Positions 20,957 through 61,587 of a DNA stretch of 64,000 bases are shown here, in pieces. Each line of letters opens with the position of its first letter. Positions within the stretch are counted from its first letter, which is position 1. The notes under the pieces were generated by a model. That model saw only the letters and a list, made by a program, of their open reading frames with translations, did no database searches and was not told where the DNA came from. The DNA is from a virus: positions 64,001 through 128,000 of the IMG/VR virus record IMGVR_UViG_3300017991_000049; one strand, given 5' to 3'. The position numbers were made by a program, and so were the translations under genes.

Positions 20957-21036
20957 CTTCAACCTCCTTGATTGGTTTTCACTTCCTATCCGTGGAAGCG
21001 ATCATTATCGGTTTATGCGACGCCTTCCTAACTGCC

Positions 21037-45403: not shown

Positions 45404-48400
45404 CTAGTAGTCCTCGTGCATCGCGATCAACGCTGGTGCTCTCCAGGCCCCTGAGGGGTACTGTTCTTGCGAGCGGATTCTTGCAACGCGGCCAATATAT
45501 GCTGCAGGGTCCGCGAGCAGCTGCGCGCGCAGCTCGTCTGACAGGCCCGTGCCGACTTCACCAGCGCGCGGACCTCCCGGCGCAAGCGCGTAGCCGAAAC
45601 CTCCAGCACCTGTTCCTTGGTATTTGCCTCCTCCTGGGAAGACGTCGGTGATGTGGACATCGGATTCCTCCAGTCGCTTTGCCTTGGTGGGTTTGCCTAC
45701 AGGTGGTTGGAATACGATACCTTCACGCGTTAATGGGTGCTTGCCTGCGATAATGCTGTGCCACAGTTGCTTAGCCTCTTCGGGGTCGGTTGTCTCCTCT
45801 GCTAGCTGAAACTTGTCTGGCGGCAGATACGGTAGGATTTCCTCGATCATCTTGCGTCGTTCTGCATAAGGCGTCACGTTTGGATCTATCGGCGTCTTAC
45901 CCAGCTGCTGGATATCGAAGAGCATGTTCTTTATGTCGAGCCCTTGCTCGCGCTGTTTGTCTCTGGAGTGTTCGACGGTTGCGTGGAGGAGCCCGCCAAG
46001 ACGTTGCGGCTCCACAGCTCGAAGGACTTGCGCAGCTTCGTCAGCCTGAGCTGCCACGCCTGCTCCTTCTTCCACTCCTGCATCGTCACTGGTAGGCCTG
46101 GAAACGTCGTCAGGCCGTATCTTTTCGGCATAGAGTTCTCCTTTCAGAACTGACCCCTCGTACTTCTTCGGAATATCCAGTTGTGGCCGCCCGCCGAACA
46201 TGCGCTCGGTATGGACGATAGGATGCCCAGTCCGCTTGGCAGTCCTGTAGCTAAGCACTTCTGCGCCACCGCGCATCAACTTGACGAGCGATGACGCGCC
46301 ATCCAACTTGGCCGACACTGACGTGCCTTCCTTCATCTGTTCAATGTAAGGCTCCACGTCTTCTGGCGCCAGTTTCTTATAGCGCACTTTGTCGTAAGGC
46401 ACTGCTTTCTTCGGCGTGACGTTGATCATCAGCCAGTCACGATCGCCCCATTTCTCGGGCTTCATCAGCACGTAGCGTTCTGGCGTGCCAGTTGTGGCTA
46501 CCGTGTACTCGATCTTTGTGGGCGTGGCCTTGGTGATCATCACCTTTCCGCGCCGCTCCTGCCGAACCTCACCCTTGCCGTAGCCGGAGCCGATACTGCC
46601 CTGAAACGCGCCATACTGGTGCGAATGCACAGGTTGCTGCTTCATGAACTTCTTCTCGCCCGGAGCGGGGATGTGTGTCGGCTTCGTCGCCCAGGAGAGC
46701 AAGCCGGTCTCCGGCGTGCCGAGCCTGTAGTCGAAGTGCTCGCCGGCGCGCTGTGCGCGGTGTCGCTGCACGAATAGATCAACAAGCTCATCGGTATCGA
46801 GCTTCGACGGGTCGCCGAAGTCGGTTCGATCTGGAATGCCACGCGCGGCCGTCTTATCCATGGCCATCTTGGAGATGTCGTCCACACCCTTGGACGTGAT
46901 GCCGACGATCTGCATGAGCTGGCGCAGCAGCACATCCTTCTCTCTAGGATTCTCCATCAACGGCTTGTGAACTGCGTCAAGGATTTGCTCATGCTCACCC
47001 TTGTGCTGCCGGAAGAACCAGTTGAGCGCCTTCTCCGCCTCCTGCGGTGTAGACACATGCTTTCCAGTAGCCTGGACGTATTCGCGCTTGACCGTCGCCA
47101 GATAGGCTTTCAGCTCCTCTGGCGTCGTCGCGTACTCCCATGTCTTCCGTGGAACCGTGCGCGTCTTCCGGCTGCCCCAGAAGGTCTTGCCCATGTCTTG
47201 AACACGCGGCCGATCATCGTAGTGCAACACCCGCGGATGGCGGGTGCCCGGATTCTGCGCCGGACCAGGCGCACGCAGCCGTGCGTGTGTCAGCTCGTGC
47301 TCAATATTGCTTGTGACGTCATCGGTCATCGCGTGGCCTGGCGCTGCTGCCCACAAAGTCTCGTCGTTGGGGTCGTATACGCCCTTCACGCCGAAATTGG
47401 CAGCCTGGCCCGGCAACGGCGGCAGATACTCTCTGTCGACCGTGGACACGGTTGTCTCTGTGTCCAGCTCTGCCGGATCCCAGCGGTGGATCCCGTACGG
47501 GTCATTGTCGTTGGCCATCGACTCTTGGGCGCGCCGCACGGCCTCGTCCAGCCCGCCAGGCGCGTCCTTGTAATACTTGTCCAACTGGTCGCGCAGCGTC
47601 AGCTTGTGCTCTTTGACGTCAGCGCCGCCCGTCGGATCGTACGGGCCGAAATTGCTGCGCCTGCGTTCCATCTCCTGACGCACGGCGTCCCAGTAGACTT
47701 TGCCGGCCAACCCGAGCGCGCCACCGACGCCTGCGCCCATCAAGCCGCTCTCCAAGACACGCCGCCAAGTGGGGCGCTCATCGTCCGGATACGGGTCGTC
47801 TACGAATTCGGAAAGTGCGCTTATCCCCCCGCCGAGGGCTGCGCCTCCTAAGCCCCATTTTGCCCAGCTATTCAACGCGGTCTTCTCAAACCATTCACGA
47901 AAACCTACATGTTTTCGTGAATCGTCAGCGGCCATTTTCAGTGGGCCTGGCAGCTTCGCGGGCGTACGGACGCCACCGAGGACGCCAGCAGCGAATTCTG
48001 CTGGGCCCTGCGTGCCGCGCTGGACCTCATGTACGAATCGACGGACTGGCCCTTTCTGCCCTAAATGCGCCATCTGCTGCTCGACACGGGCCTGGTTCTC
48101 CGCCTGGGAGTAGACGTTACCGATCTGTGCAGCAGCGCCGCCTTGTAGCTGATCGTAGTGTTGCCGGTTCCGGTAGCCCCACTGCTTAGCCAGGCGCGAC
48201 TTCTCGCCTTGCATCAGCATGTCACGGCCAGGGCCTTGCCCAAAACGGCGACCAGCGAGCGCTAGCTGGCGATTGTGATCGAACGCCGGCTGTGTCATCC
48301 GTACGGTACGGATGAGGTTCTTGTAATTGGGATTCTGCGCCAGGAACAGCTGATTCTCGGCAGACTGCCCGGCCAGCATCGCAGCCATGGCCGGGCTTGC

Positions 48401-49456
48401 GCCAGAGCGCGCCATCATCTGCCGCCACTGGCTTGGGTCGATGTACGACAATTCGCCGGCCTGGATCTTGTCGAGCCAGCGCTTGGCTTCTGAGTTCTCG
48501 TTGATAGCCCCCGACTGTGCAGCACGCGCCGTAGCGAGCACCAGGTTGCCTGTGTGGCTCTTGGCTGCCTGCTGTGTCAGGATCTCGTTCTGGGCGTTCA
48601 ACTCTGCCAGACTGGCACCGCCCTCTGGGATAGTCTCTCCGGCGGCGTCCATCGCAGCGCCCATGATGCCGCCGCGCTGCTGGAAATAGCGCCCGACCCG
48701 GATGTTCTTGTCGGCCTGATCGAAGTTGTAATGCGCATTTGGTGCGATCTTATCGAGCGCCTGGAACATGCCGGCCATGTCGCTGGTGTCGTACCCTTCC
48801 GGGCCGAGCGCGTCACGGACGGCGGACGTGGCGCCGAGAATCGGCGTTAGGTCTTTGATCTGGGTCTCAGTATCTGTACCTGTGCCGACCCAGCCACGCT
48901 TGGTGGCTTCCCTGTACGCGCCGCCGATTTCCTGCAGAGACATACCACGATGCTTCATCGGGTCGCTGAGGATGTCCTCGGCCATCTCCTCGGCCATCTG
49001 GACAGCCTTCTCCGCGGTCATGTCGTCATCGTACTTGTGCGCATCAGCGATAGCCGAAGCCAACGAGGCCACCGAACCCTCGCCGCCGTGCATGGCATCC
49101 CACCAGTTGGGTGCCCAGCGCATCAGATACGGCGAGATCTCGCTCAGATTGTCCCGGATGGTCTCAGCCTGCTGCTGCTTGCCCTCGTCCCAGTCTTGGC
49201 CCAGCATCGTGCTGTAGCCTTTGAGGATCTTGATGGGCGCCTTGTCGCGAGACGTGGCAGACCGCATGATCTCGGTCTGCATATCACGCATCTCCTGCTC
49301 ACGCAGGTGATCCATGATATTGCCACCGGGCTTCCACGGACCCAGCTCGAAGTCAGGGTTGACGCTCTTGACCCACTGACGGAGCTTGGGTTCGCCCAGT
49401 GTGTCCCAGATGGACTGGATGAAGCCTTGAGAGTCAGCTAGCGCGTATTTGTCCAT
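45404..49456 (-). CDS. LigD-like 3-prime phosphoesterase plus ATP-dependent DNA ligase with a ~880-aa N-terminal extension bearing an HExxH motif (1350 aa)
   Basis: Phosphoesterase-domain motifs HFDYRL...GLLSWATKP...YGAFQGSIGSGYGKGEV. Ligase motif I SAKLDG, then VLKGELYA, EGIVFQ and the OB-domain tail VGTGLSDELRAQL...IGRVARIRSQEQYPSGAWRAPALIAMHEDY. The N-terminal region carries IEHELTH. Confidence 0.75.
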   Translation of the reverse strand: MDKYALADSQGFIQSIWDTLGEPKLRQWVKSVNPDFELGPWKPGGNIMDHLREQEMRDMQTEIMRSATSRDKAPIKILKGYSTMLGQDWDEGKQQQAETIRDNLSEISPYLMRWAPNWWDAMHGGEGSVASLASAIADAHKYDDDMTAEKAVQMAEEMAEDILSDPMKHRGMSLQEIGGAYREATKRGWVGTGTDTETQIKDLTPILGATSAVRDALGPEGYDTSDMAGMFQALDKIAPNAHYNFDQADKNIRVGRYFQQRGGIMGAAMDAAGETIPEGGASLAELNAQNEILTQQAAKSHTGNLVLATARAAQSGAINENSEAKRWLDKIQAGELSYIDPSQWRQMMARSGASPAMAAMLAGQSAENQLFLAQNPNYKNLIRTVRMTQPAFDHNRQLALAGRRFGQGPGRDMLMQGEKSRLAKQWGYRNRQHYDQLQGGAAAQIGNVYSQAENQARVEQQMAHLGQKGPVRRFVHEVQRGTQGPAEFAAGVLGGVRTPAKLPGPLKMAADDSRKHVGFREWFEKTALNSWAKWGLGGAALGGGISALSEFVDDPYPDDERPTWRRVLESGLMGAGVGGALGLAGKVYWDAVRQEMERRRSNFGPYDPTGGADVKEHKLTLRDQLDKYYKDAPGGLDEAVRRAQESMANDNDPYGIHRWDPAELDTETTVSTVDREYLPPLPGQAANFGVKGVYDPNDETLWAAAPGHAMTDDVTSNIEHELTHARLRAPGPAQNPGTRHPRVLHYDDRPRVQDMGKTFWGSRKTRTVPRKTWEYATTPEELKAYLATVKREYVQATGKHVSTPQEAEKALNWFFRQHKGEHEQILDAVHKPLMENPREKDVLLRQLMQIVGITSKGVDDISKMAMDKTAARGIPDRTDFGDPSKLDTDELVDLFVQRHRAQRAGEHFDYRLGTPETGLLSWATKPTHIPAPGEKKFMKQQPVHSHQYGAFQGSIGSGYGKGEVRQERRGKVMITKATPTKIEYTVATTGTPERYVLMKPEKWGDRDWLMINVTPKKAVPYDKVRYKKLAPEDVEPYIEQMKEGTSVSAKLDGASSLVKLMRGGAEVLSYRTAKRTGHPIVHTERMFGGRPQLDIPKKYEGSVLKGELYAEKIRPDDVSRPTSDDAGVEEGAGVAAQADEAAQVLRAVEPQRLGGLLHATVEHSRDKQREQGLDIKNMLFDIQQLGKTPIDPNVTPYAERRKMIEEILPYLPPDKFQLAEETTDPEEAKQLWHSIIAGKHPLTREGIVFQPPVGKPTKAKRLEESDVHITDVFPGGGKYQGTGAGGFGYALAPGGPRAGEVGTGLSDELRAQLLADPAAYIGRVARIRSQEQYPSGAWRAPALIAMHEDY

Positions 49457-49608: not shown

Positions 49609-50277
49609 TTACTTCGTGTACTCCTCATCGCTGCCCAGCCCGTCGATCTGGTAGTGGAAGTCGATGTACTTGGCTAGCACGTCCTCCTGCGGGCCTTCGG
49701 CTGACGCGTTGCGGTAGAACCGCAGATCGAGGTTGCTGGATATTGTCTCATTGGCCGGCGGGGCAATCTCTGCGAAGGTGGCGATCTGTAGCATATCGCC
49801 CGACGTGTATGTGAAGACGCCCTGATTACCTTGTAGGGTGGCAATGGTTGTCCAGCTGCCCGGTACTGCTGCGCCGTTGTTGTACCACCGATAGTCCGCC
49901 TTCCAGATCGGTTTGACCACGTCCGACTGGATGTAGTGGACATGCAGCCTGATCGCAGTATCCAGCTTCTTCTGGTGCTGCATCTGCATGGTCAGGTAGA
50001 CTATTTCCGCCTCGTCGTCATACGGGAACAGCAGACCGTTATTGGTGAAGTCGTAGTCGGGCTTGCTGTTCTGGCCCTGCTTGTCGCGTGTAAGCGGAAC
50101 GGAGAAGTCATCCCAGGCAACACCGTCATCGCCGCCGCCGAGTGTATGCAGACGGTCGGCGATGTAGCGCCAGTTCAGGTGACTGTGGTGACCGCCGATC
50201 ATATCGGGGCTCGTCCACAGTCCCTTATATAGGCTAGGCGGAATGTACTTTCCCATTTGCCTCCTCCTTGAGGTCAA
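49609..50277 (-). CDS. Hypothetical protein (222 aa)
   Basis: Complete ORF. No Ku-like features seen. Confidence 0.45.
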   Translation of the reverse strand: MTSRRRQMGKYIPPSLYKGLWTSPDMIGGHHSHLNWRYIADRLHTLGGGDDGVAWDDFSVPLTRDKQGQNSKPDYDFTNNGLLFPYDDEAEIVYLTMQMQHQKKLDTAIRLHVHYIQSDVVKPIWKADYRWYNNGAAVPGSWTTIATLQGNQGVFTYTSGDMLQIATFAEIAPPANETISSNLDLRFYRNASAEGPQEDVLAKYIDFHYQIDGLGSDEEYTK

Positions 50278-51607
50278 ACTGCTCCAGTAGCTTCTCGAAC
50301 TCGTCCTCCATCGACTTCAAGGTCTCCTCGCGCTCGTCCTCGTTCTTGACCTCCGGCGGCACAAAGCGGATGGTCGTCGAGCGCTGTAGCACGAGAATAC
50401 CTGGCGCATCGTCGCTGTCGTCCTGCTTCTCAGCCGCAGCCTTCTTCATCTTAAAGGTTTGCGTGGAGACCGGTCTAGTCTGGCTGCCGTCCTTCAACCA
50501 CTCCTTGAACTGCTGCATGGTCAACGGGGTTATTTTTCCTAGGCCTTTCCAGCCTTTTTCGTAATTGGCAAGGTAGGCGTCTTTTGCTTCGCGCAGGCTC
50601 GAAAAGCCGAGCATGACCTTGTGCTCGTCGAACCGCTTGGTCTCGGGGTCAATCTGATCGACGACAAAAGCCAGTTCGGTATCCGGGGATCCGCCAAGGA
50701 ATACGTCGACGGAATCGCCGTCAGCGTCGGTTGTGCGTCTGATGTAACCATAGTGGTGCTGCAACGCCGGCCAGGCCGGATCGCGCTTGTCTCCCTTCTT
50801 CGTCTCGATCGAGATGTCTAGGCCGTGCATACGGACATGGCCCTTACGGTAGTTGCCAGCCTCGGCCTGGGCGGGCGATGGCTGCGCAGCCTTGCGCGCT
50901 GCGCGGGCAATCGACTGTCCGAGCGTGACTGTGTCGGCGGCTTCCTTCGGCTTGCCGTATCGCTCACAGATCTCACACATAGTGACGTCGGGGTACGGCT
51001 CGTCCTTCTTGAACTTCCTGCCGCAGCCCGGGCACTTGTCGGCGGCCACCTTCAAGCTCTGGACGCCGGGCTTGTCCCACGGTAGCTGCGCCTTTTGGGC
51101 CTTTCTTGCGCCATTTGTGCCATTAGCCTTGCTGGTCTCATTGGCGCCCAGCACGCCGCTCTTACGCACGGCGAAGGTCACATGGAACTCCATCGCCTTG
51201 TCGGTCTTCGGGTGCACTGGCAGCGGCGTGAGCCCGTAGGTCTGCCGCAGCTTCTTGAGTTCTGGGCTCTTGACCTCGAACACCCAGCAGCGGTTCATCT
51301 CTTCCCAACCGGCCGGGTTGAAGTCCTTGATCTTGCCCAGGGAGTAGCCGAACTCGTGTCCGCGTTCGGTAATTTTGTCAGGGCCGCCAAACGACTCGAT
51401 TTCCTCGGGCCGCATGACGGAGACGTGCGCGTTGTAGCGCAGTTCCGATTCGGACATCGGCAGTTCGGTGCCGGGCTCGTTCAGCGCATCGAACGCACCG
51501 CGGCCAATAGCATTAGGTACGGACATCAAGAGCCAGCCCGACTGTGAGAGGTAGAGCTTGCCCTTGAGTGGCGCAGCCGCCGTCTTGAACAATTCGAGTA
51601 CGGACAT
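50234..51607 (-). CDS. Multidomain protein: 2H phosphoesterase-like, Zn ribbon and family-I inorganic-pyrophosphatase-like domains (457 aa)
   Basis: Two HxT/S motifs (NAHVSVM, EFHVTFA). CPGCGRK...CEIC zinc ribbon. HHYGYIRRTTDADGDSVDVFL closely matches PPase NYGYIPHTLSLDGDPVDVLV. Confidence 0.65.
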   Translation of the reverse strand: MSVLELFKTAAAPLKGKLYLSQSGWLLMSVPNAIGRGAFDALNEPGTELPMSESELRYNAHVSVMRPEEIESFGGPDKITERGHEFGYSLGKIKDFNPAGWEEMNRCWVFEVKSPELKKLRQTYGLTPLPVHPKTDKAMEFHVTFAVRKSGVLGANETSKANGTNGARKAQKAQLPWDKPGVQSLKVAADKCPGCGRKFKKDEPYPDVTMCEICERYGKPKEAADTVTLGQSIARAARKAAQPSPAQAEAGNYRKGHVRMHGLDISIETKKGDKRDPAWPALQHHYGYIRRTTDADGDSVDVFLGGSPDTELAFVVDQIDPETKRFDEHKVMLGFSSLREAKDAYLANYEKGWKGLGKITPLTMQQFKEWLKDGSQTRPVSTQTFKMKKAAAEKQDDSDDAPGILVLQRSTTIRFVPPEVKNEDEREETLKSMEDEFEKLLEQFDLKEEANGKVHSA

Positions 51608-51609
51608 AA

Positions 51610-52518
51610 CTATCGCTCTGTATGGTTTGCGCCGGTCCCGTGATCGCGGATGAACGTCTCAAGTGCCTGGATGCGCTCCTCGTGTGCTTTCCCCTGATTT
51701 CCGGTAAAGCGGTCAGCAGACTTGGCATCGATGGTGCTAAGCAGCGTGTCGTATGATTTACGCAGGCTGCCGACCATTTGCTCTAGCTTTCCGCGCGCTT
51801 CGGCCCCCGCGATGAATTGTGGCCAACGGCGATCCTGCTGCTTCTCCGAAGCGCGCATGCGCGCAGAGAGTTGCGCACGGTCTGCGCGGCAATCGGCAAT
51901 ATCTTCGATTAACGCGTCCGTTGTCCTATGCAGCTTCTCGATCTCGAAGTGGTGGTCGGCCAGGCGGTCTTCTTGTCGATTGTGCCGTTCCGCGCTGACG
52001 TCGTCCAGCATACGCATCTCGCGCTGTAGCTGTGTATCGAGCCCGGCAATCTCCATCTTGCGCGTGTCGTCAATCAGGCGCATCTCGCGTTGCAGCATAG
52101 TATCGAGCTGCACGATCTCGCCCTCCATGAATTCGGCTTTCACCTGGGCGACAGCCACCTGCGTGGCCTGGGACATGCCCCAGGTGACGACGGCGATGAC
52201 AACCACCCAGATCAGTGAACAGAGTGCGACAGCGACGCCCCAGTTGATCTTTCCGCGCTCAGAAGATTTCTCGGCCTGTCTGTCGAGTCGCTGGTGTAGT
52301 TCAGAAGTGCGCTCGTCCTGGCGCCGAGCCGCTGACGCCATCATTTCGCGCGTCTCGGCGAAGCCTGTCTTGACCGTGTCAGTCAATGACGCAACTGCCT
52401 GGGACATGTTTTGCATGTCCCGTTCCAGCCCAGTGACGCGTCCTTCGAGCTTCTGCTGTTGCTGCTGTTGCTGCTCTAGCTCCGTGGTCATCGCTGCGCC
52501 TCCGTGCTGTTGATCCAT
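51610..52518 (-). CDS. Coiled-coil membrane-anchored protein with a poly-Q tract (~302 aa)
   Basis: The ORF-track start is GTG. The ATG at 52516-52518 is preceded by AGGTGAG. Single transmembrane helix (VAVALCSLIWVVVIAVVTW) and the internal repeat LDTMLQREMRLIDD / LDTQLQREMRMLDD. Confidence 0.5.
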   Translation of the reverse strand: MDQQHGGAAMTTELEQQQQQQQKLEGRVTGLERDMQNMSQAVASLTDTVKTGFAETREMMASAARRQDERTSELHQRLDRQAEKSSERGKINWGVAVALCSLIWVVVIAVVTWGMSQATQVAVAQVKAEFMEGEIVQLDTMLQREMRLIDDTRKMEIAGLDTQLQREMRMLDDVSAERHNRQEDRLADHHFEIEKLHRTTDALIEDIADCRADRAQLSARMRASEKQQDRRWPQFIAGAEARGKLEQMVGSLRKSYDTLLSTIDAKSADRFTGNQGKAHEERIQALETFIRDHGTGANHTER

Positions 52519-52533
52519 GATTCTCACCTACTT

Positions 52534-53662: not shown

Positions 53663-54319
53663 TTATGCGCTGGCAACCTGCGCTGCGCGAGCCTCTTCGA
53701 TGACCTGGTAGATCTCGTCGTGCAGGTGTTCTCTTGTCTTGTCATAGCCTTCATCGTCCACACAGTCTACCACATGCCAGCGGCGGTAGGTACGGGCCTG
53801 TTCCAGGTAAACGTCCCGGACGCGTGCCATATAGGATAGAGAGTCTTGATGAAGGTCTTTCGTGTCGTCGCGGGTATGGGTACGCCGATACGACGCCTCA
53901 GCAGTCAGATCCAGCAGAATGACCAGATCCGGCCTGGGCAGGCCAAATATCTCGTACTCGGTCTGCTCGATACGGTAGATCAGCGCAGCGCGGCTGTCCA
54001 CGGGCTCGTTGGCAGCCTGATGCGCGATGTTGGACGGCACGTAGCGGTCGCAAATGACCGTAAGGCCGCCGGCCAGCGCAGCTTGCAGGTCGGGCAAAGC
54101 CTCGTAGCGATTGATCGCGTACAGCATCGCGACCAAGAACGGGTCGTTCTGGCCTAGTTCGCCAAACTCTCCACGGAGGTAGCGCCGCACGTGCGGCCCG
54201 AAGACCGACGTGTCATAGGTTGGAAAGCTGAACAACTCAGATCCGTTCAGCCTTTGGTGTAGCATCCGTGCCTGTGTCGCTTTACCGCTTCCATCAATTC
54301 CTTCAAACGCAATCAGCAT
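53663..54319 (-). CDS. tmk: Thymidylate kinase (dTMP kinase)
   Basis: P-loop MLIAFEGIDGSGKATQ and a DRY-like DRYVPS motif. Start re-picked at the ATG of MLIAFEG (54317-54319). Confidence 0.8.
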   Translation of the reverse strand: MLIAFEGIDGSGKATQARMLHQRLNGSELFSFPTYDTSVFGPHVRRYLRGEFGELGQNDPFLVAMLYAINRYEALPDLQAALAGGLTVICDRYVPSNIAHQAANEPVDSRAALIYRIEQTEYEIFGLPRPDLVILLDLTAEASYRRTHTRDDTKDLHQDSLSYMARVRDVYLEQARTYRRWHVVDCVDDEGYDKTREHLHDEIYQVIEEARAAQVASA

Positions 54320-54527
54320 GCTCTGGCTCCAAACGAATAGCGGCAAGCGGCACATCCAGGATGACCGTACCGTCCTTCAATTCAAAATCTTGGTGCGTGC
54401 GCGCTTCCAGCGTCAGGCAGCCCATGTTGATAGGCTCGATGACTTCGTTAGCGCCAAACACCATGGTGGTCATGTCGCCATCCGGCATGACAGCACCTAC
54501 GTGACAGACGTAGTTGAAGGCGAATCG
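54303..54527 (-). CDS. Small hypothetical protein (~75 aa; internal start)
   Basis: MRFAFNYVCHVGAVMPDGD... fills the gap between the thymidylate kinase and the phosphatase. The longer ORF-track version would overlap the phosphatase gene. Confidence 0.3.
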   Translation of the reverse strand, partial: RFAFNYVCHVGAVMPDGDMTTMVFGANEVIEPINMGCLTLEARTHQDFELKDGTVILDVPLAAIRLEPEHADCV

Positions 54528-55180
54528 CATTGTTCTTCCTCCTCTTCCGTGGGTTCGAAGCTTCCGGTGTAGTTCACCGTTTGTAACTCCATAACCCCCC
54601 GAAAGACACGAATCACATTCACGCATCCAGGGTCCTGGTCGATCTCCCTTGCGCGGTGCATGGGCAACGCCATGAGATGCGCTAGAACCGCCCGGTTCAC
54701 ACATCTGTGGGAGATAACTACCACACGCTGGTCCGGATGCTTAATGGCGAGCTTCTCGATGAAGGCCAGGGCTCGACGGCAAATCTGGGAGAGGTTCTCT
54801 CCATCAGGAAAGCCGTATGTCCCTGGGTCCGCCAAGAAGGCGCCATAGTTCTCGTCGTCTTCCCGCATTATACGGTCCCACGACAAACCTTCCCAGCTCC
54901 CCATGTCGGCTTCTACGAGGGACGTGCAGAAAGTCACAGGTCCATCCACCGACGTGTTGACGATGCGAGCCGTCTGAACCGCCCGACCCAGGGGGCTCGC
55001 GTAAATCGCATCAATGCCCTTACCCTCGAAATACTCGGCCAGGGCGTTAGCCTGCGCAACTCCACGATCGGACAGGCAGATGCCAGTGGCCATCCGCTGT
55101 CCCATCAGGATAGGGTAGTTCTGATCATTGTTGCTCGTGGCACAATGACGCATCAGATAAATGATGCCCGAACCGTCCAT
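54497..55180 (-). CDS. Histidine phosphatase superfamily protein (phosphoglycerate-mutase-like, 227 aa)
   Basis: IYLMRHCAT is an RHG-type catalytic motif. The second His lies in VVVISHRCV. Confidence 0.6.
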   Translation of the reverse strand: MDGSGIIYLMRHCATSNNDQNYPILMGQRMATGICLSDRGVAQANALAEYFEGKGIDAIYASPLGRAVQTARIVNTSVDGPVTFCTSLVEADMGSWEGLSWDRIMREDDENYGAFLADPGTYGFPDGENLSQICRRALAFIEKLAIKHPDQRVVVISHRCVNRAVLAHLMALPMHRAREIDQDPGCVNVIRVFRGVMELQTVNYTGSFEPTEEEEEQCDSPSTTSVT

Positions 55181-56849: not shown

Positions 56850-57247
56850 TCACTTCCTTTCAGTAACAGGTAGATGACGCCCACGTGGAGCGTCGTTTGG
56901 ACAAACGAACTACCGAAATACTTCCGGTGCTTGAAGAACCGGTCTCGCTGGTGTCCTTGCCAAAAGGACCCCAGCTGAGAAGTTCTTTTGGCACCACCGT
57001 ACTGCTTCAACATATCGCGCACACGCGCTCGAGAATGACCAGCTTCCAGCAATGCTGCGGCGCAGGTAAGCACCGTAGCGTCGAACAGTGACAGTAATCT
57101 TGCGCTGCCTCGACCAGCCCGTGAGGCCCGCAGGCCCTCTACGAGGTCGTGGTCGAGTGCGTAGCGCAATGTTCGCAAAGGTAGATCTGTACGTTCGGCG
57201 ATCGCCGCTAGGTCTAGCTTTTTGATCACATGATCAACTTTGGTCAC
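56846..57247 (-). CDS. Putative HTH DNA-binding protein (133 aa)
   Basis: LDLAAIAERTDLPLRTLRYALDH resembles a MerR or excisionase-like HTH. Confidence 0.4.
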   Translation of the reverse strand: MTKVDHVIKKLDLAAIAERTDLPLRTLRYALDHDLVEGLRASRAGRGSARLLSLFDATVLTCAAALLEAGHSRARVRDMLKQYGGAKRTSQLGSFWQGHQRDRFFKHRKYFGSSFVQTTLHVGVIYLLLKGSE

Positions 57248-57277
57248 CGGTATCCTCCTGCAAGTATGATAGCACTA

Positions 57278-58285
57278 TCAGCTATCTTGAACAACCCCCT
57301 CTTGAGAAGATTCGTCATTTTCGGCGTCTTTTAGCCGAATGTTCCGCGGAGCCCGGTTCTCAATGGGGGGTAGGTCAGGGCCGGCCGCGGTAACGATCTC
57401 ATTGTCCGCCATCACGGCGTCGTAGCTGTCGGACGACCAGTTGCCAAACATCCGTTGCTCAGCCCGACGCCGGTTCGCCAGCTGTTGATACGCTGATTCG
57501 TACGTAGCGCACGCTGGACTGTAGGATGGCTGCGGGTCTTCCAGCCGATGCGCGCCGCCAACCAGCCGTCCCATGCTCGTAACGTAGGGTTCATGCCCTG
57601 CAGCGTATTCGACAACTACGATGTTATCGAGGCGCTGCAGCACACGGCACATACCCCAAGCGACAGCGTCTCTGGAACGAAACTCCGCAGCGTTTATGGC
57701 CTGATGCCTGTCGTCGTAGATGAGATCCGTGTCTTGCCAGTCCTCGTCCTGATGACGGTTCTGCACCATGTAGGACACACGCGGCGATACAGGTGGGTTA
57801 CTCGGAAGGGCGCCCATAGCTACCTCCAGATCAGAACGGCCATCCGGATAGCGCCGGTTGGCTATGTCGTCGTCCGAACGCACCATCGTCACAGAGTCGT
57901 CGTAATGGCCGAGTCGGCGCGCAGTCTCGGCGGCCGCCACCATCCCTTCCGTCGGTATTGGCTCTACGGTCTCGTAGTGATCCAACAAGCCACCAGGCGC
58001 AGGCACGCCAGTGATCGTTTCGACCGGCTCTACGTTCACCACCTTGTTATTGGCGATGACCATACGATAGCGCGGATGGCCGGCAGGAAACTCGACCAGG
58101 ACCCGCGCATCGCGATCGATCACGCGGCAAGCAATACGCTCATCACGCGAGCGCCATTCGGCGTCGCGCGCTGCGTTACCCAGGTCAGCATATTCCACAC
58201 CACTGCCCCAATCGTTCCCATCGCGGGCACGGTGCTGCACCCAAAACTTATTGGGCTTCTCCCGCCTACGAAACGGCCATACCAT
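57278..58285 (-). CDS. Hypothetical protein (335 aa)
   Basis: Complete ORF. Confidence 0.45.
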   Translation of the reverse strand: MVWPFRRREKPNKFWVQHRARDGNDWGSGVEYADLGNAARDAEWRSRDERIACRVIDRDARVLVEFPAGHPRYRMVIANNKVVNVEPVETITGVPAPGGLLDHYETVEPIPTEGMVAAAETARRLGHYDDSVTMVRSDDDIANRRYPDGRSDLEVAMGALPSNPPVSPRVSYMVQNRHQDEDWQDTDLIYDDRHQAINAAEFRSRDAVAWGMCRVLQRLDNIVVVEYAAGHEPYVTSMGRLVGGAHRLEDPQPSYSPACATYESAYQQLANRRRAEQRMFGNWSSDSYDAVMADNEIVTAAGPDLPPIENRAPRNIRLKDAENDESSQEGVVQDS

Positions 58286-58937
58286 CGAAGCGTTCCTCTG
58301 GTCGCGCTATGTCCACGTGCTCCAAGCAGATGCGGGACCACAGCTCGAAATCGTCCATCGCGGCTACCAGCAAGTCCTTCGTACGCCAGTCCAGCTCGAC
58401 GATGTCGTCTTCGTTGGATTGACAGTCGGTAGCGGCGCCAAGGTGCAGCACATGCACCACGCCCAGATGTACCTGCCCTACGGGCGTTTGGTCCTCGTGG
58501 ACAAGCCCGACAGTGCGCATGGTCCAGACAGGCGGCTGGGGCTTGAATTGCAGCTCCTCCGTCAGCTCGCGCAGCATGCCGCGGATATACATGTCGGACA
58601 TGAACTCGTTGCGCTCAGCGAGACGGCCCAGCTGCGAATACGCGAGATCGCACGGGTTGATGTGCCCGCCGATGCCGATCGAGCGCTTGCCGTGCAGCCG
58701 CTTCTCGCCTTGCCCGCCGCCGCGCCAGTAATTCATGAGGCGCTGGCCGCGTTCCACGATGATGTAGGGGATCAGCTGCTTGAAGCTGGAATCCTCTTCT
58801 ACTGCGTCGCGCGGTTGGAACGACTGGTTGCTCTCTGCGAACAGCGGCGTGTAGTTGCTGCTGAGCGGCATGAAGCCGTTGAAGTAACCGCACTCACGAA
58901 ACAGGGGTGTGCCTACGCACAGAACTTCTTCACTCAT
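58266..58937 (-). CDS. Hypothetical hydrolase-like protein with a Nudix-box-like segment (~223 aa)
   Basis: Start re-picked at the ATG at 58935-58937, which has a strong AAGGAG upstream. RELTEELQF resembles the Nudix REUxEExGU box, imperfectly. Confidence 0.4.
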   Translation of the reverse strand: MSEEVLCVGTPLFRECGYFNGFMPLSSNYTPLFAESNQSFQPRDAVEEDSSFKQLIPYIIVERGQRLMNYWRGGGQGEKRLHGKRSIGIGGHINPCDLAYSQLGRLAERNEFMSDMYIRGMLRELTEELQFKPQPPVWTMRTVGLVHEDQTPVGQVHLGVVHVLHLGAATDCQSNEDDIVELDWRTKDLLVAAMDDFELWSRICLEHVDIARPEERFDGMAVS

Positions 58938-58984
58938 TGTGACTCCTTTCACAGAAATATAGCGACTCTGCCCAGACGGGTCAA

Positions 58985-59716
58985 CTAGAACGTCCGGAGC
59001 GGAATGCCACCCATCAGGGCAGCGTGTGTTGAGAATGACGACCAATAAGTCCCTATCAACTCCTTGGTGCGTGCTAACGAGAATAGATCGATTGCCGAGT
59101 CGGCCACAGATGTATGCCGGCCACGTCGTGCGCGCTGCGGGCGCATAGTCTGTTCGCGCCAGATAATACGATCGCCGTAGAGCCGCCGCAGCCACTTCAC
59201 GCTGTCGAAGTTGTCCGAACAGAGCAGGAACTGCGCGTCGGCGTCTTCAGCGACTACGCGATCAAGCTCCTTCTTCAACAGCGGGTCGGACTGACGACAG
59301 TTTGGTAGGTCGGTACGCCGGACATGCAGGCCAATGGCGTCGGCCGGCACGGTCTCCATGAACGCCTCCAGCGTGTCCTCGAACTCTGGCTGCAGCCGTA
59401 GCGCACGCGCCCGTGCTGTGGCAATAGTCATGAATTCGTCGTGGGGGATCTCCAGTTGCGTCCTGTTGTACCATTCGACGATGTGCGTCGAGCGTTCTCC
59501 TACGAACTCGCGGATGCGCTTGTACTTACGCCCATCACGCCGAGACGGCATGATCGCGCAGGTGTCTGGCACGAATACGTCAGCGAACGTGGAGCTACAC
59601 GCCGCATGTCGGTTCCAGTGCACCAGAAACGACAAGCCGTAGTAGTCGGCAATCGCCCCAATGCCGGTCCAACCACGCAGCCTGTTGCACAGGCCGCTCT
59701 GCGTGCAGTGCTGCAT
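58985..59716 (-). CDS. GT11-like alpha-1,2-fucosyltransferase family glycosyltransferase (~243 aa; internal start)
   Basis: IGLHVRRTDL matches the GT11 HxRRGD motif. YWSSFSTHAALMGG matches the C-terminal SxFSxxAA motif. The ORF-track N-terminus is Arg-rich artifact overlapping the upstream gene. Confidence 0.55.
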   Translation of the reverse strand: MQHCTQSGLCNRLRGWTGIGAIADYYGLSFLVHWNRHAACSSTFADVFVPDTCAIMPSRRDGRKYKRIREFVGERSTHIVEWYNRTQLEIPHDEFMTIATARARALRLQPEFEDTLEAFMETVPADAIGLHVRRTDLPNCRQSDPLLKKELDRVVAEDADAQFLLCSDNFDSVKWLRRLYGDRIIWREQTMRPQRARRGRHTSVADSAIDLFSLARTKELIGTYWSSFSTHAALMGGIPLRTF

Positions 59717-59757
59717 GATAACCGGGAACGTGTGGCGCGTACGTCCAGGCGCCGGAA

Positions 59758-60303
59758 TTATGCCGGTCCTTCGCGGGATAGCTTTTCTGCAAAGCGCCTC
59801 AGCCTGCTTTTTCCAGTTCTGTTTACCCACGGAAATGTCCGATCTGGGACGGGCAGATTTAGAAACGCGCATAGCGGCTCCCATCCGTCGCCGCCGCATA
59901 CGTCGTACACCAGCAGGTCGTCCTGCCGTTCCGCAAAGTGCTTGTAGACAGCTGCTGTGTGCTCGTCCCATTTTCGTCTATGCAGCGCAGGACTGCCTCC
60001 AAATTGCGACATGCGGCTGATGATCCACGGGTCCATGTCTCGGACAGTCAGGATGAACTTGCTGCCCGGGTACGCCGCGTCCAGCTCGCGGAACATGTAG
60101 TTGATCGGCGAGTCACAGAAAGCATTGTACTCCTCGTCGAGAGAGTGCAAAGGCGGCTTTCCGTGTCGCTTGTTCTGCCTGGCAACCGTCTTGACCTTGC
60201 GAGCCCAGTGCAGGCAATTGAAGCCGAGGATGTTCAAGGCCTTCTGCAGCGATGCAGTGCCGGTCTTGTTCATCCCTATACCAAGTATGAGTGATTTGGC
60301 CAC
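59758..60303 (-). CDS. Sulfotransferase-family protein, paralog 1 (181 aa; GTG start)
   Basis: PAPS 5-prime-phosphosulfate-loop-like GIGMNKTGTAS and 3-prime-phosphate motif TVRDMDPWIISRM. The GTG at 60301-60303 overlaps the upstream TAG as TAGTG, giving exactly the same length as the paralog. Confidence 0.6.
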   Translation of the reverse strand: MAKSLILGIGMNKTGTASLQKALNILGFNCLHWARKVKTVARQNKRHGKPPLHSLDEEYNAFCDSPINYMFRELDAAYPGSKFILTVRDMDPWIISRMSQFGGSPALHRRKWDEHTAAVYKHFAERQDDLLVYDVCGGDGWEPLCAFLNLPVPDRTFPWVNRTGKSRLRRFAEKLSREGPA

Positions 60304-60848
60304 TAGGCTAATCCCCTTCTTTTTAGCGCTCGGCGACGGCGACGGCGTAGGTACGGCGTCGTCTTGTTCTTCCACGGGAACGGCTGATCGGGCACAGGCA
60401 CGCCTAAGAACTCGCACAGCGGCACCCAGCCCACGCCGTCGCATAGATGGTACACAAGGATGTCGTCTTCACGGCCCTTGAAGTAGCGTGCCACCGCCTC
60501 GCAGTGGTCGTCCCAGCAGCGAGAGTGGTACTGTCGCGTATCACCGAATTGGATCATACGGCTCTTGATCCAGGCTTCCTTGCTCCGCATCGTGAAGATG
60601 AAACGGCTACCCGGATATGTGATGTCCAATACCTCAAAATGCAGGGGTATGGGGCAGTCGCAGAACGCGCGGTACTCGTCGGTGAGCGAATGCAGTATCG
60701 GCCGCTTGCGCAGCTGATTCTCCTCGATGACCTTGCTGACACGTACTGAGTCGTGTAGGCAAGGAAACCCAAGCACGTCCAGGGCGCGCGTCAGTGACAC
60801 CGTCCCGGTCTTGTTCATCCCTATGCCAAATATGAATGGCTCATCCAT
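60303..60848 (-). CDS. Sulfotransferase-family protein, paralog 2 (181 aa)
   Basis: GIGMNKTGTVS and TMRSKEAWIKSRM, colinear with paralog 1. Confidence 0.65.
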   Translation of the reverse strand: MDEPFIFGIGMNKTGTVSLTRALDVLGFPCLHDSVRVSKVIEENQLRKRPILHSLTDEYRAFCDCPIPLHFEVLDITYPGSRFIFTMRSKEAWIKSRMIQFGDTRQYHSRCWDDHCEAVARYFKGREDDILVYHLCDGVGWVPLCEFLGVPVPDQPFPWKNKTTPYLRRRRRRALKRRGLA

Positions 60849-61584
60849 GATGCTTCCTCGCTGCTTCTTCTAGCGCCGCAGACTCAGCTGGTGATACACG
60901 CCAGCGTTCTGTCTTACGACCTTTCCAGTTACGTCCCAAATGTCCCAAATGCAGCACTGCATAATCAACCCACGGCAGCAGCAGGCGTTTCTCGTCAGCC
61001 CACTCGAGCCCCAGGGCCACATCATACTTGGCCGCAGTGCGGTTTTCACTTATGCCGATTGGACGTGTCGGGTAGTGCCAGAGTTGAAAGTAGCCTTCGA
61101 TACCGATCGGGTTGGATGTTGGGCGCTTGCCCCACACCTTGTTCTTACGCACAGCAGGTAGCGGATCAAGCCCTAGAGAATACCAGGACTTCTTGCGTTT
61201 GCACCGCTTCCACTGCGCCTCGGTCTTACAGCTACGACGACGCGCGCTGTAGAGGCACGTCTTGTCCAACTCGTTGAGTCCGACCCTGTCCGGTGGCGGC
61301 GGCATCATCAGGATGTCGGAATCCATAAACAGCAGCCAGCCGTCCGGCTTAGCATAAGCCAGTGCCTCGTTGAGAGCTGCCCCCTTGTTAAACGGCGCGT
61401 TGTATTTGTTCCAAGCGCATGTCTTGAAGCACTCAGCGCCGCACCGCTTTGCCACCGCTTCCGTCGATCCGTCCGTCAGGCTCGTAGCCACTACCACGCG
61501 CCCGTAACGTACCGCCTCCGGCAGCGTCAACGCTAGGAAGTCGCTGTAGTCGACGCTCGTCATTATGATGGTGAGCTGTGGCAT
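60841..61584 (-). CDS. GT-A fold glycosyltransferase (247 aa)
   Basis: N-terminal LTIIMTSVDY is a Rossmann beta-strand. LLFMDSDILM is a DxD motif. Confidence 0.5.
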   Translation of the reverse strand: MPQLTIIMTSVDYSDFLALTLPEAVRYGRVVVATSLTDGSTEAVAKRCGAECFKTCAWNKYNAPFNKGAALNEALAYAKPDGWLLFMDSDILMMPPPPDRVGLNELDKTCLYSARRRSCKTEAQWKRCKRKKSWYSLGLDPLPAVRKNKVWGKRPTSNPIGIEGYFQLWHYPTRPIGISENRTAAKYDVALGLEWADEKRLLLPWVDYAVLHLGHLGRNWKGRKTERWRVSPAESAALEEAARKHHG

Positions 61585-61587
61585 ACG

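What the first reader, a model, noticed from the sequence alone, without database searches (positions are those of the whole stretch)
50234..51607. Unusual fusion of a 2H phosphoesterase domain, a zinc ribbon and a family-I inorganic-pyrophosphatase-like domain
The N-terminal ~170 aa carry two HxT/S motifs (HVSV, HVTF) diagnostic of the 2H phosphoesterase superfamily, which covers LigT/RNA ligase-like and 2',3'- or 2',5'-phosphodiesterase enzymes. The C-terminal half matches the PPase active-site stretch (YGYIRRTTDADGDSVDVFL versus YGYIPHTLSLDGDPVDVLV). Viral 2H phosphodiesterases are known to destroy 2'-5' or cyclic oligonucleotide immune signals. Placement next to the LigD-like gene alternatively suggests an RNA/DNA end-healing role. 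The domain combination appears uncommon.
Basis: partly seen in the sequence, partly recalled or inferred. Interest (0 to 1): 0.6.

Follow-up and report, generated by a model that had tools for sequence, protein, structure and literature searches.

The report
Phage 2H phosphodiesterase–pyrophosphatase fusion enzyme
A gene of an uncultivated giant phage joins two intact phosphate-cutting enzymes, a 2H phosphodiesterase and a stripped-down pyrophosphatase; the pairing is common in related phages and is repeatedly fused or adjacent to a DNA/RNA end-repair ligase, which suggests a repair kit rather than a one-off oddity.

Summary
The ORF is real: 50234-51607, minus strand, 457 aa. Both domain calls hold.

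- **2H domain.** Residues ~13-160 are a 2H phosphoesterase (Pfam 2H-SAK, E=5e-9). Both HxS/T motifs are conserved in about 95% of homologues, and the AlphaFold model matches only 2H folds.
- **Pyrophosphatase domain.** Residues 246-372 are the phage-specific InPase domain (PF18823, E=2e-47). It has a family-I pyrophosphatase fold and an invariant Asp triad, but appears to lack the K29/E31 hairpin.
- **Zinc ribbon.** The four-Cys ribbon is an optional linker insert, not a family feature.

"Uncommon" is wrong for metagenomes. I collected 113 proteins with 2H followed by InPase, mostly from jumbo-phage-like contigs that carry a fused beta-beta' RNA polymerase. No isolated phage has the full architecture.

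The new point is the link to the neighbouring gene. Its LigD-type 3'-phosphoesterase + ATP-ligase module is about 50% identical to modules fused to 2H and/or InPase in 29 related proteins. It lies next to the 2H-InPase gene in the closest relatives.

My best reading (about 0.45) is a nucleic-acid end-healing and sealing kit. The main rival (about 0.25) is an Acb1-like eraser of immune nucleotide signals. No biochemistry exists for InPase. This is a new variant of a known kind, of moderate interest.

The parts
50234..51607 (-). Complete gene for the 457-aa 2H / Zn-ribbon / InPase protein
   Evidence: ORF list. The identical protein P0001 is in public assemblies. Homologues at 40-74% identity align end to end.
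51128..51571 (-). 2H phosphoesterase domain (aa 13-160)
51416..51427 (-). First catalytic motif, H61-V-S63-V
   Evidence: H61 is present in 86 of 90 homologous domains. It lies on predicted strand 61-65. Translation checked.
51173..51184 (-). Second catalytic motif, H142-V-T144-F
   Evidence: H142 is present in 87 of 90 domains; T144 is T in 81 and S in 5. It lies on predicted strand 141-149.
50966..51040 (-). Cys4 zinc-ribbon-like insert in the inter-domain linker (C192, C195, C211, C214)
   Evidence: Sequence checked. Only sub-threshold HMM support (Prok-RING_1, E=0.054). Shared with the closest relatives P0002 and P0003, and with the start of the motif in P0050. A CxxC...CxxC pattern occurs in the linker of only 32 of 113 two-domain proteins.
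50492..50872 (-). InPase domain: hairpin-less, family-I-type pyrophosphatase (aa 246-372)
   Evidence: PF18823, E=1.9e-47, full-length match. AlphaFold2 model with pLDDT 83.2. All top 50 Foldseek PDB hits are family I pyrophosphatases.
50705..50722 (-). Metal-binding Asp triad D296-G-D298-S-V-D301
   Evidence: D296 in 95 of 95 domains, D298 in 94, D301 in 94. Aligns to E. coli pyrophosphatase D65/D67/D70.
50237..50491 (-). C-terminal tail (aa 373-457): a short hydrophobic strand-like motif (PGILVLQRSTTIRFVPP) followed by an acidic helix-like end
   Evidence: The motif is shared with a subset of homologues: P0002-4, P0007, P0017, P0030, P0039, P0056, P0066 and P0050. Function unknown.
49609..50256 (-). 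Overlapping downstream gene (215 aa, no detectable family) between the 2H-InPase gene and the PE-ligase gene
   Evidence: Gene call on the public contig. No Pfam, PHROG or NCBIfam hit. Absent from locus L006, where the two enzyme genes abut.
45404..49456 (-). Neighbouring 1350-aa gene: conserved N-terminal region, HExxH module, LigD-type 3'-phosphoesterase and ATP-dependent ligase
   Evidence: LigD_N and LigD_PE_dom hits. PHROG 114, ATP-dependent DNA ligase. Matches solved LigD phosphoesterase domains.
45407..46840 (-). PE + ligase module of the neighbour (aa 873-1350), with HFDYR (907), HSHQY (944) and the ligase KLDG motif (1050)
   Evidence: 48-51% identical to modules fused to InPase and/or 2H in P0068, P0050 and P0031. 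29 fusion proteins in the census. Motifs checked.

Best explanation
The gene encodes a modular protein with two working hydrolases.

**Shown.**
- The N-terminal domain is a 2H phosphoesterase with both HxS/T motifs.
- A Cys4 ribbon lies in a variable linker.
- The C-terminal domain is the phage-specific InPase. It has the family-I pyrophosphatase fold and the complete acidic metal-binding cluster, but a deletion where the K29/E31 hairpin should be.
- The host is an uncultivated jumbo phage (about 226 kb) with its own fused beta-beta' RNA polymerase.
- The gene is physically and evolutionarily coupled to a LigD-type 3'-phosphoesterase + ATP-ligase module. That module is encoded next door here. 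In relatives it is adjacent or fused to 2H, to InPase, or to both.

**Inferred mechanism.** Together these modules heal and seal broken nucleic-acid ends, most plausibly RNA or ribonucleotide-ended strands cut by metal-independent host nucleases.
1. The 2H domain opens 2',3'-cyclic phosphate ends.
2. The PE domain removes the remaining 3'-phosphate or 3'-ribonucleoside.
3. The ligase seals the break.
4. InPase hydrolyses the pyrophosphate released when the ligase is adenylylated, or a diphosphate-bearing end or nucleotide. This pulls the reaction forward.

Whether the protein is carried in the virion and injected, as proposed for InPase- and 2H-containing 'polyvalent' phage proteins, is not shown here.
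For: **Domains and catalytic residues.**
- Pfam hits.
- Conservation of H61, H142 and T144, and of E268, R275, Y286, D296, D298, D301, D327, E328, K330, Y345 and Y349 across 90 and 95 homologous domains.
- Motif census: 160 of 172 2H domains have at least two Hx[ST] motifs; 161 of 174 InPase domains keep both acidic motifs.
- Confident AlphaFold2 models match 2H enzymes and family I pyrophosphatases.

**Coupling to PE-ligase.**
- The neighbour's aa 873-1350 is 51%, 48% and 50% identical to modules fused with InPase or 2H in P0068, P0050 and P0031.
- Of 120 listed PE-ligase homologues, at least 7 carry 2H-SAK and 5 carry InPase.
- Domain census of the 340 proteins then held:
  - 113 carry 2H followed by InPase.
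  - 10 carry all three modules, e.g. P0240 and P0245.
  - 12 carry 2H + PE-ligase.
  - 7 carry InPase + PE-ligase.
- In L006 the 2H-InPase gene is directly followed by, and overlaps, the PE-containing gene.
- Matching contig lengths suggest that P0005/P0345 and P0012/P0348 also share contigs.
- The PE catalytic motifs and the ligase KxDG motif are intact.
- Other fusion partners are also end- or nucleotide-phosphate enzymes: NUDIX, an LNS2/HAD-like phosphatase and a weak P-loop kinase-like domain.

**Further points.**
- The best Pfam match is the 2H family named after 'Swiss Army Knife' RNA-repair proteins.
- In BFVD, SAK, cyclic phosphodiesterase and LigT-like phage proteins score better than Acb1 proteins.
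- LigD PE is an established Mn-dependent 3'-end-healing enzyme (abstracts of PMC3300020, PMC3082917 and PMC3258152).
- The 2H-InPase gene is the best-conserved gene in its neighbourhood across divergent relatives.
Against: - No 5'-kinase was found in the window. One would be needed to seal the 5'-OH ends left by metal-independent RNases.
- PE-ligase lies within 10 kb of 2H-InPase only in the closest relatives. It was not found in L003, L004 or L008-L011.
- In L006 the neighbour has PE but no ligase.
- The same linker also hosts SET, GNAT and C39-peptidase domains. These have nothing to do with end repair and fit a 'co-delivered independent effectors' logic.
- InPase is widespread in phages without any ligase. 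It is fused to portal, minor head and DarB-like proteins, so its core role cannot be ligase-specific.
- Iyer et al. 2017 reported that 2H domains of polyvalent proteins never associate with RNA ligases.
- No enzyme of this family has been assayed.
Confidence: 0.45

Rival explanations
1. Immune-signal eraser. The 2H domain acts like Acb1 or the poxvirus cGAMP phosphodiesterases and cleaves the cyclic or 2'-5' oligonucleotide messengers of CBASS, type III CRISPR or OAS-like systems. InPase, like the NUDIX domains found in relatives, cleaves pyrophosphate-linked signals such as ADP-ribose-derived messengers or alarmones. The fusion would disarm several nucleotide-signalling defences at once.
For: - Iyer et al. 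2017 predicted exactly these roles for 2H and InPase in phage polyvalent proteins.
- The missing K29/E31 hairpin could open the pyrophosphatase site to nucleotide-sized substrates.
- NUDIX is a recurrent fusion partner.
Against: - There is no sequence-level match to any Acb1 family. PHROGs gave nothing for the N-terminal domain except an unannotated family at E=0.095, and the profile found no PDB sequence.
- In BFVD, Acb1 proteins score worse (E=0.02-0.5) than SAK, cyclic phosphodiesterase and LigT-like proteins.
- This reading does not explain the repeated fusion and adjacency with an ATP-dependent ligase.
Confidence: 0.25
2. Generic 'polyvalent' cargo. The protein is a virion-packaged, injected string of independent effector domains. 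The fusions reflect only shared delivery or location, not a shared pathway. Each domain (2H, InPase, PE-ligase, SET, GNAT, NUDIX) has its own unrelated early target.
For: - Linker length ranges from about 0 to more than 1000 aa and hosts unrelated domains.
- An HExxH module shared by the neighbour and P0245 resembles the processing peptidase logic of polyvalent proteins.
- In isolated phages InPase is fused to portal, minor head and DarB-like proteins.
- One relative fuses InPase to an encapsulated-ferritin-like or rubrerythrin domain.
Against: - No portal, MuF or other packaging anchor is present in this protein.
- The gene lies about 30 kb from the major capsid gene, among nucleotide-metabolism-type genes (dTMP kinase, histidine phosphatase).
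- The domain order 2H then InPase is invariant in 113 of 113 proteins. The partner set is dominated by phosphate-chemistry enzymes, which is more order than random shuffling predicts.
Confidence: 0.2
3. Housekeeping pyrophosphate removal. InPase simply clears pyrophosphate to drive phage transcription, replication or DNA and sugar modification. The phage has its own RNA polymerase and a nearby transferase and kinase cluster. The 2H domain would be an accessory RNA-processing activity.
For: - Iyer et al. 2017 list pyrophosphate clearance as an alternative role.
- The gene sits between a glycosyl/sulfotransferase and kinase cluster and the RNA polymerase genes in at least seven loci.
Against: - Hosts already have abundant classical pyrophosphatase.
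- The missing hairpin removes pyrophosphate-binding residues.
- This reading does not explain the obligatory N-terminal 2H domain or the ligase fusions.
Confidence: 0.1

Closest known systems
InPase (PF18823) and 2H domains of phage 'polyvalent proteins' (Iyer, Burroughs, Anand, de Souza & Aravind, J Bacteriol 2017, PMC5512222)
   Same: The same InPase family, with a full-length HMM match, the hairpin deletion, conserved acidic residues and a phage-only distribution. The 2H domain acts as a module in multi-domain phage proteins, with variable partners such as NUDIX and GNAT.
   Different: There is no MuF, portal or DarB-type scaffold. The direct 2H-to-InPase pairing and its linkage to a LigD-type PE-ligase are not mentioned in the parts of that paper's text I read. 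The text also states that these 2H domains were never seen with RNA ligases. The paper's figures and supplement could not be checked.
Pseudomonas phage Pa193 (Pbunavirus) portal gp19, PDB 9B41
   Same: Its residues 636-762 are a close InPase homologue (E=7.7e-26 to this protein; 7.7e-45 to the family profile).
   Different: There the domain is the C-terminal appendage of a portal protein, and residues 529-765 were not resolved. No solved InPase structure therefore exists. That protein has no 2H domain.
Acb1 anti-CBASS nucleases and poxvirus cGAMP phosphodiesterases (2H superfamily; PDB 7T27, 9BKQ)
   Different: Only 11-14% identity and no sequence-family match. Those are stand-alone proteins of 140-200 aa, whereas here the domain is the N-terminal module of a fusion. 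Fold scores are no better than for RNA cyclic phosphodiesterases or Usb1.
End-healing and sealing enzymes: bacterial LigD (PE + ligase + polymerase), fungal/plant tRNA ligase Trl1 (ligase + kinase + 2H cyclic phosphodiesterase), T4 Pnkp/Rnl1
   Same: A 3'-end-healing phosphoesterase combined with an ATP-dependent ligase. The 2H + ligase pairing in one polypeptide in relatives parallels Trl1. The PE catalytic motifs are conserved.
   Different: There is no polymerase domain, no Ku and no clear 5'-kinase. The pyrophosphatase partner is not, to my knowledge, part of those systems. Here the modules are split over two genes. Substrate (RNA or DNA) is unknown.
Classical family I soluble inorganic pyrophosphatase (PF00719, e.g. 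E. coli Ppa)
   Same: The same OB-like fold (Foldseek probability 1.0). The Y55 and D65/D67/D70 equivalents and the E20 equivalent are conserved.
   Different: Below the Pfam cut-off (14.8 against 23.5 bits). There is a deletion of about 13 residues where K29/E31 lie. TM-score is only about 0.45. A distinct invariant N-terminal AGNYxKG motif is present.

Membership tests
2H phosphoesterase superfamily | Two HxT/S catalytic motifs | tested here: met
   H61-V-S63 and H142-V-T144 are present. They are conserved in 86 and 87 of 90 homologous domains. 160 of 172 domains have at least two Hx[ST] motifs.
2H phosphoesterase superfamily | 2H fold, with the two motifs on central beta-strands | tested here: met
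2H phosphoesterase superfamily | HMM match to a curated 2H family above its threshold | tested here: met
   PF22547 2H-SAK scores 36.8 bits against a cut-off of 27. No other 2H-clan family was reported even at E<=10.
Acb1 anti-CBASS nuclease family | Sequence-level membership in the Acb1 family | tested here: not met
Acb1 anti-CBASS nuclease family | Hydrolysis of cyclic di- or tri-nucleotide immune signals | not testable with these tools
   This needs an enzyme assay.
InPase (PF18823), phage polyvalent-protein pyrophosphatase | Full-length HMM match above threshold | tested here: met
   160.9 bits against 26.8; profile positions 2-135 of 135.
InPase (PF18823), phage polyvalent-protein pyrophosphatase | Conserved acidic metal ligands, and absence of the beta-hairpin between strands 1 and 2 that classical enzymes have | tested here: met
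   D296, D298, D301, D327 and E328 are conserved in 94-95 of 95 domains. The feature is as described in PMC5512222.
Classical family I inorganic pyrophosphatase (PF00719) | HMM score above the gathering threshold | tested here: not met
   14.8 bits against 23.5; only residues 283-307 align. The family profile against PDB pyrophosphatases gives E=0.04-1.
Classical family I inorganic pyrophosphatase (PF00719) | Family I fold and the D65/D67/D70 triad | tested here: met
   The top 50 Foldseek PDB hits are all family I pyrophosphatases, probability up to 1.0, TM about 0.45. The triad aligns.
Classical family I inorganic pyrophosphatase (PF00719) | Complete set of pyrophosphate-binding residues, including K29 and E31 | tested here: not met
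   The segment carrying K29/E31 is deleted in the alignment. This mapping is sequence-based and of low confidence outside the motifs.
Polyvalent proteins (Iyer et al. 2017) | Several effector domains in one phage or plasmid polypeptide drawn from a shuffling pool | tested here: met
   Two catalytic domains plus a Zn ribbon. Relatives swap in SET, GNAT, NUDIX, PE-ligase, HExxH and C39 modules.
Polyvalent proteins (Iyer et al. 2017) | Evidence of virion packaging: MuF or portal fusion, or a head-gene neighbourhood | tested here: inconclusive
   No MuF or portal domain. The major capsid gene lies about 30 kb away at 20027-20962. Flanking genes are uncharacterised. Other InPase proteins are fused to portal or minor head proteins.
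Nucleic-acid end-healing and sealing systems (LigD, Trl1, Pnkp/Rnl type) | A 3'-end-healing phosphoesterase linked to a nucleotidyl-transferase ligase | tested here: met
   The neighbour carries PE motifs HFDYR and HSHQY and ligase KLDG. Family hits. Fusions and adjacency.
Nucleic-acid end-healing and sealing systems (LigD, Trl1, Pnkp/Rnl type) | A 5'-end-healing activity (polynucleotide kinase) | tested here: not met
   No polynucleotide kinase is detectable in the window genes scanned. Only one relative, P0175, has a weak, sub-threshold P-loop kinase-like domain before PE-ligase.
Nucleic-acid end-healing and sealing systems (LigD, Trl1, Pnkp/Rnl type) | Demonstrated repair of broken RNA or DNA | not testable with these tools
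   This needs reconstitution assays.

The most novel reading that the evidence does not exclude
2H-InPase together with the LigD-type PE-ligase, plus NUDIX, a HAD-like phosphatase or a kinase-like domain in relatives, is a previously undescribed nucleic-acid repair pathway. It would be close to a core gene set of a large clade of uncultivated jumbo phages that carry their own fused beta-beta' RNA polymerase. It would reverse damage inflicted by host metal-independent RNases or nucleases. In this reading InPase is a dedicated pyrophosphate- or diphosphate-end-processing partner. That would give the first functional handle on a domain found in thousands of phage protein clusters, including the portal of therapeutic Pbunaviruses.
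Probability: 0.3. Interest if true: 0.7.

Novelty: new variant of a known kind. Interest (0 to 1): 0.45.

Why it matters
InPase is one of the most widespread phage enzyme domains with no assigned activity. In a library of 1.84 billion representative proteins, 11,681 matched this protein at E<=0.001. The domain also sits on the portal of Pbunaviruses used in phage therapy.

The recurrent three-way link found here (2H phosphodiesterase, InPase, LigD-type phosphoesterase-ligase) turns a vague prediction that InPase 'acts on some nucleotide' into concrete, cheap experiments. These are end-healing and sealing assays with and without pyrophosphate, run against cyclic-nucleotide cleavage assays.

If the repair reading holds, a large clade of uncultivated jumbo phages would carry a self-contained kit for undoing nuclease-based immunity. 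If the signal-eraser reading holds, the protein would be a dual-specificity anti-defence enzyme. Either result would be new biochemistry, but within concepts that are already established.

Tried and rejected
- **Classical pyrophosphatase membership.** Rejected: below the Pfam cut-off, with the hairpin deleted.
- **LigT, 2_5_RNA_ligase2 or other 2H Pfam families.** No hits even at E<=10.
- **Acb1 membership.** Rejected at sequence level.
- **NCBIfam.** Nothing for the target.
- **Sequence search of solved structures for the 2H domain.** Only chance hits to pentraxin.
- **Promoter and terminator scan of 45-54.5 kb.** Fewer or no more sites than in shuffled sequence, so uninformative.
- **Head-gene neighbourhood as support for packaging.**
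  - The 381-aa neighbour has no PDB, Pfam or PHROG match.
  - The capsid gene lies about 30 kb away.
  - Homologues of the neighbour's N-terminal 870 aa are few (10) and carry no informative domains.
- **Shared C-terminal targeting peptide.** 'DG[FL]GSDEEY[ST]K' is shared only by the 215-aa downstream gene and homologue P0004, so it is not a general signal.
- **PE-ligase near 2H-InPase in more distant relatives.** Not found within 10 kb in L003, L004 or L008-L011.
- **Literature.**
  - Burroughs & Aravind 2016, the source of the 'Swiss Army Knife' name, is not held.
  - The supplement of the polyvalent-protein paper is not held.
  - No paper on InPase biochemistry was found.
Full report
**1. 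Observation**

The window holds an ATG-initiated ORF of 457 codons at 50234..51607 on the minus strand. Its start lies two bases after the stop of the upstream gene. Its end overlaps the start of the next gene, so it sits in a tightly packed, one-directional gene array. The identical protein is already present in public metagenome assemblies on contigs of up to about 226 kb.

**2. Domain identity**

Pfam gives two hits above their curated cut-offs:
- PF18823 InPase: aa 246-372, E=1.9e-47, full-length.
- PF22547 2H-SAK: aa 42-150, E=5.4e-9.

The classical pyrophosphatase model PF00719 is sub-threshold. No other 2H-clan family is reported. The Cys4 ribbon (C192, C195, C211, C214) has only a sub-threshold RING-like hit.

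I built domain alignments from homologues and predicted both domains.
- The InPase model (pLDDT 83.2) finds only family I inorganic pyrophosphatases (top 50 hits, probability up to 1.0, TM about 0.45).

**3. Catalytic residues**

Across 90 homologous 2H domains, H61 is kept in 86 and H142 in 87. T144 is T in 81 and S in 5. R82, G83 and R121 are invariant.

Across 95 InPase domains, E268, R275, Y286, D296, E328, K330, Y345 and Y349 are invariant. D298, D301 and D327 are kept in 94.

HMMER aligns Y286, D296, D298 and D301 with E. coli pyrophosphatase Y55, D65, D67 and D70. It also shows a 13-residue deletion over the hairpin that carries K29 and E31. This agrees with the published description of InPase as a hairpin-less, monophyletic, phage-specific branch (PMC5512222). 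Both domains therefore look catalytically competent, although the pyrophosphate-binding pocket is altered.

A few homologues, such as P0066, have lost both His motifs yet keep InPase.

**4. How common is the architecture?**

- **Isolated phages.** In 50,697 records only the InPase half matches. There are 460 records, and none covers 80% or more of the query. The matches lie inside portal, minor head, DarB-like and 'tail' proteins. PHROGs gives the same picture.
- **Solved structures.** The only solved entry with a homologue is the Pa193 portal (9B41). Its InPase-bearing residues 529-765 had no density.
- **Metagenomes.** More than 60 clusters at 90% identity carry 2H-SAK + InPase. An exhaustive phmmer search of 1.84 billion representatives gives 11,681 hits at E<=0.001 and 3,001 at E<=1e-30.

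In my census of the 340 proteins collected by then, 113 have both domains. The 2H domain always comes first, and lengths run from 334 to 2046 aa. The linker runs from about 0 to more than 1000 aa. It can hold SET, GNAT, NUDIX, an LNS2/HAD-like phosphatase, an HExxH module or even an intein. A CxxC...CxxC pattern appears in 32 of 113 linkers. The ribbon seen here is shared only with the closest relatives, and in part with P0050.

So 'uncommon' holds only for cultured phages.

**5. Genomic setting**

All genes in the window run on the minus strand. The window encodes:
- a fused beta-beta' multisubunit RNA polymerase (34718-39088) and a further beta' piece (31794-33683);
- a baseplate wedge homologue (366-1865);
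- a major capsid protein (20027-20962), 30% identical to that of Salmonella phage Arash, the nearest cultured relative (RNA polymerase 33% identical).

Upstream of the target lie a dTMP kinase, a histidine phosphatase, and sulfo- and glycosyltransferases.

The same order is seen in at least seven related loci from contigs of about 40-226 kb. It runs: transferase cluster, then 2H-InPase, then about 8-10 kb of unknown genes, then RNA polymerase. Between such loci the 2H-InPase protein is the best-conserved gene. It keeps 43-53% identity, whereas neighbours show at most about 40% over partial alignments, or nothing.

**6. The neighbour and the fusion network**

The 1350-aa gene at 45404-49456 ends in a LigD-type 3'-phosphoesterase and an ATP-dependent ligase. 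The PE motifs (HFDYR, HSHQY) and the ligase KLDG motif are intact.

This module (aa 873-1350) is 51%, 48% and 50% identical to modules fused to InPase and/or 2H in three proteins:
- P0068: PE-ligase-InPase.
- P0050: PE-ligase-(CPGC motif)-InPase.
- P0031: 2H-InPase-PE.

Among 120 listed homologues of the module, at least 7 carry 2H-SAK and 5 carry InPase. In the census, 10 proteins carry all three modules, 12 carry 2H + PE-ligase, and 7 carry InPase + PE-ligase. Two examples are:
- P0240: 2H-PE-ligase-NUDIX-InPase.
- P0245: 2H-HExxH-InPase-PE-ligase.

In locus L006 the 2H-InPase gene is directly followed by the PE-bearing gene, although that copy lacks the ligase. Matching contig lengths suggest that two further close relatives also keep both genes on one contig.

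More distant relatives have no PE-ligase within 10 kb.

**7. Interpretation**

The shown facts are two intact hydrolase domains and a strong, repeated physical link to a PE-ligase. From established enzymology:
- 2H enzymes open 2',3'-cyclic phosphates or cleave 2'-5' and cyclic oligonucleotides.
- LigD PE removes 3'-phosphates and 3'-ribonucleosides.
- ATP ligases release pyrophosphate on adenylylation.

The most economical joint reading is an end-healing and sealing kit in which InPase pulls the ligase step or trims a diphosphate-bearing end. I put this at about 0.45.

The evidence against it:
- No 5'-kinase was found.
- The PE-ligase link is confined to part of the clade.
- InPase is widespread without any ligase.
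- The same linker hosts SET, GNAT and peptidase domains. These fit the 'polyvalent protein' logic of co-delivered but independent effectors.

**8. Comparison with known systems and novelty**

Both domain families and the polyvalent-protein concept are known. No biochemical study of InPase was found in the literature available to me.

Three things appear to be undescribed:
- the fixed 2H-to-InPase pairing as a conserved gene of a jumbo-phage clade;
- its three-way linkage with a LigD-type PE-ligase, where the 2017 survey reported no ligase association for these 2H domains;
- the natural single-chain '2H-PE-ligase-NUDIX/HAD-InPase' proteins.

I classify this as a new variant of a known kind, of moderate interest (0.45).

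Noticed in passing
window 45404-49456 (-), especially 47285-47299: The 1350-aa neighbour is itself a composite protein. It has an N-terminal region of about 500 aa conserved in only 10 database proteins, glycine-rich hydrophobic stretches (aa ~530-590), a module with a conserved HExxH motif (HELTH at aa 720), then the PE and ligase domains. The same HExxH module (HEMTH) lies between 2H and InPase in P0245. It may be a zincin-like processing peptidase.
   Followed up: partly
window 34718-39088 and 31794-33683 (-): A fused beta-beta' multisubunit RNA polymerase gene (1456 aa) plus a separate beta'-like gene (629 aa). The nearest cultured relative is Salmonella phage Arash, at only 33% identity. 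The same fused polymerase lies about 8-10 kb downstream of 2H-InPase in several related contigs of around 200 kb.
   Followed up: partly
window 20027-20962 (-), 23619-25121 (-), 366-1865 (-): Probable major capsid protein (30% identical to Arash gp226), a structural protein homologous to Arash gp222, and a baseplate wedge homologue (phrog_6). Most other large ORFs in the window have no detectable family.
   Followed up: partly
window 53663-55180 (-) and about 57000-64000 (-): A dTMP-kinase-like gene, a histidine-phosphatase (alpha-ribazole-phosphatase-like) gene, two Sulfotransfer_4 genes and a glycosyltransferase lie just upstream of the target. Sugar-nucleotide, glycosyl- or sulfotransferase clusters occupy the same position in related phages. 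They may modify DNA or the virion surface.
   Followed up: no
window 49609-50256 (-); protein P0004: The 215-aa gene between the two enzyme genes ends in DGLGSDEEYTK. Homologue P0004 of the 2H-InPase protein ends in DGFGSDEEYSK. This suggests a fusion or deletion joining the two genes in that phage. No other ORF in the window has this ending.
   Followed up: yes
proteins P0244, P0070, P0021: P0244 (2H-PE-ligase-LNS2/HAD-InPase) carries a Hint/intein-like insert. P0070 fuses InPase to a rubrerythrin or encapsulated-ferritin-like domain. P0021 has a DxDGT HAD-like insert between 2H and InPase.
   Followed up: partly
window 51610-52527 (-): The upstream, translationally coupled gene encodes a 305-aa protein with a poly-Q run, one hydrophobic segment and long coiled-coil-like regions. 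It gives only weak SMC-like hits. It is conserved in L006 at 36% identity.
   Followed up: no
window 50237-50491 (-): The C-terminal tail after InPase has a hydrophobic strand-like motif (PGILVLQRSTTIRFVPP) shared with a subset of homologues, including the PE-ligase-InPase protein P0050. Its function is unknown; it could be a docking or oligomerisation element.
   Followed up: partly
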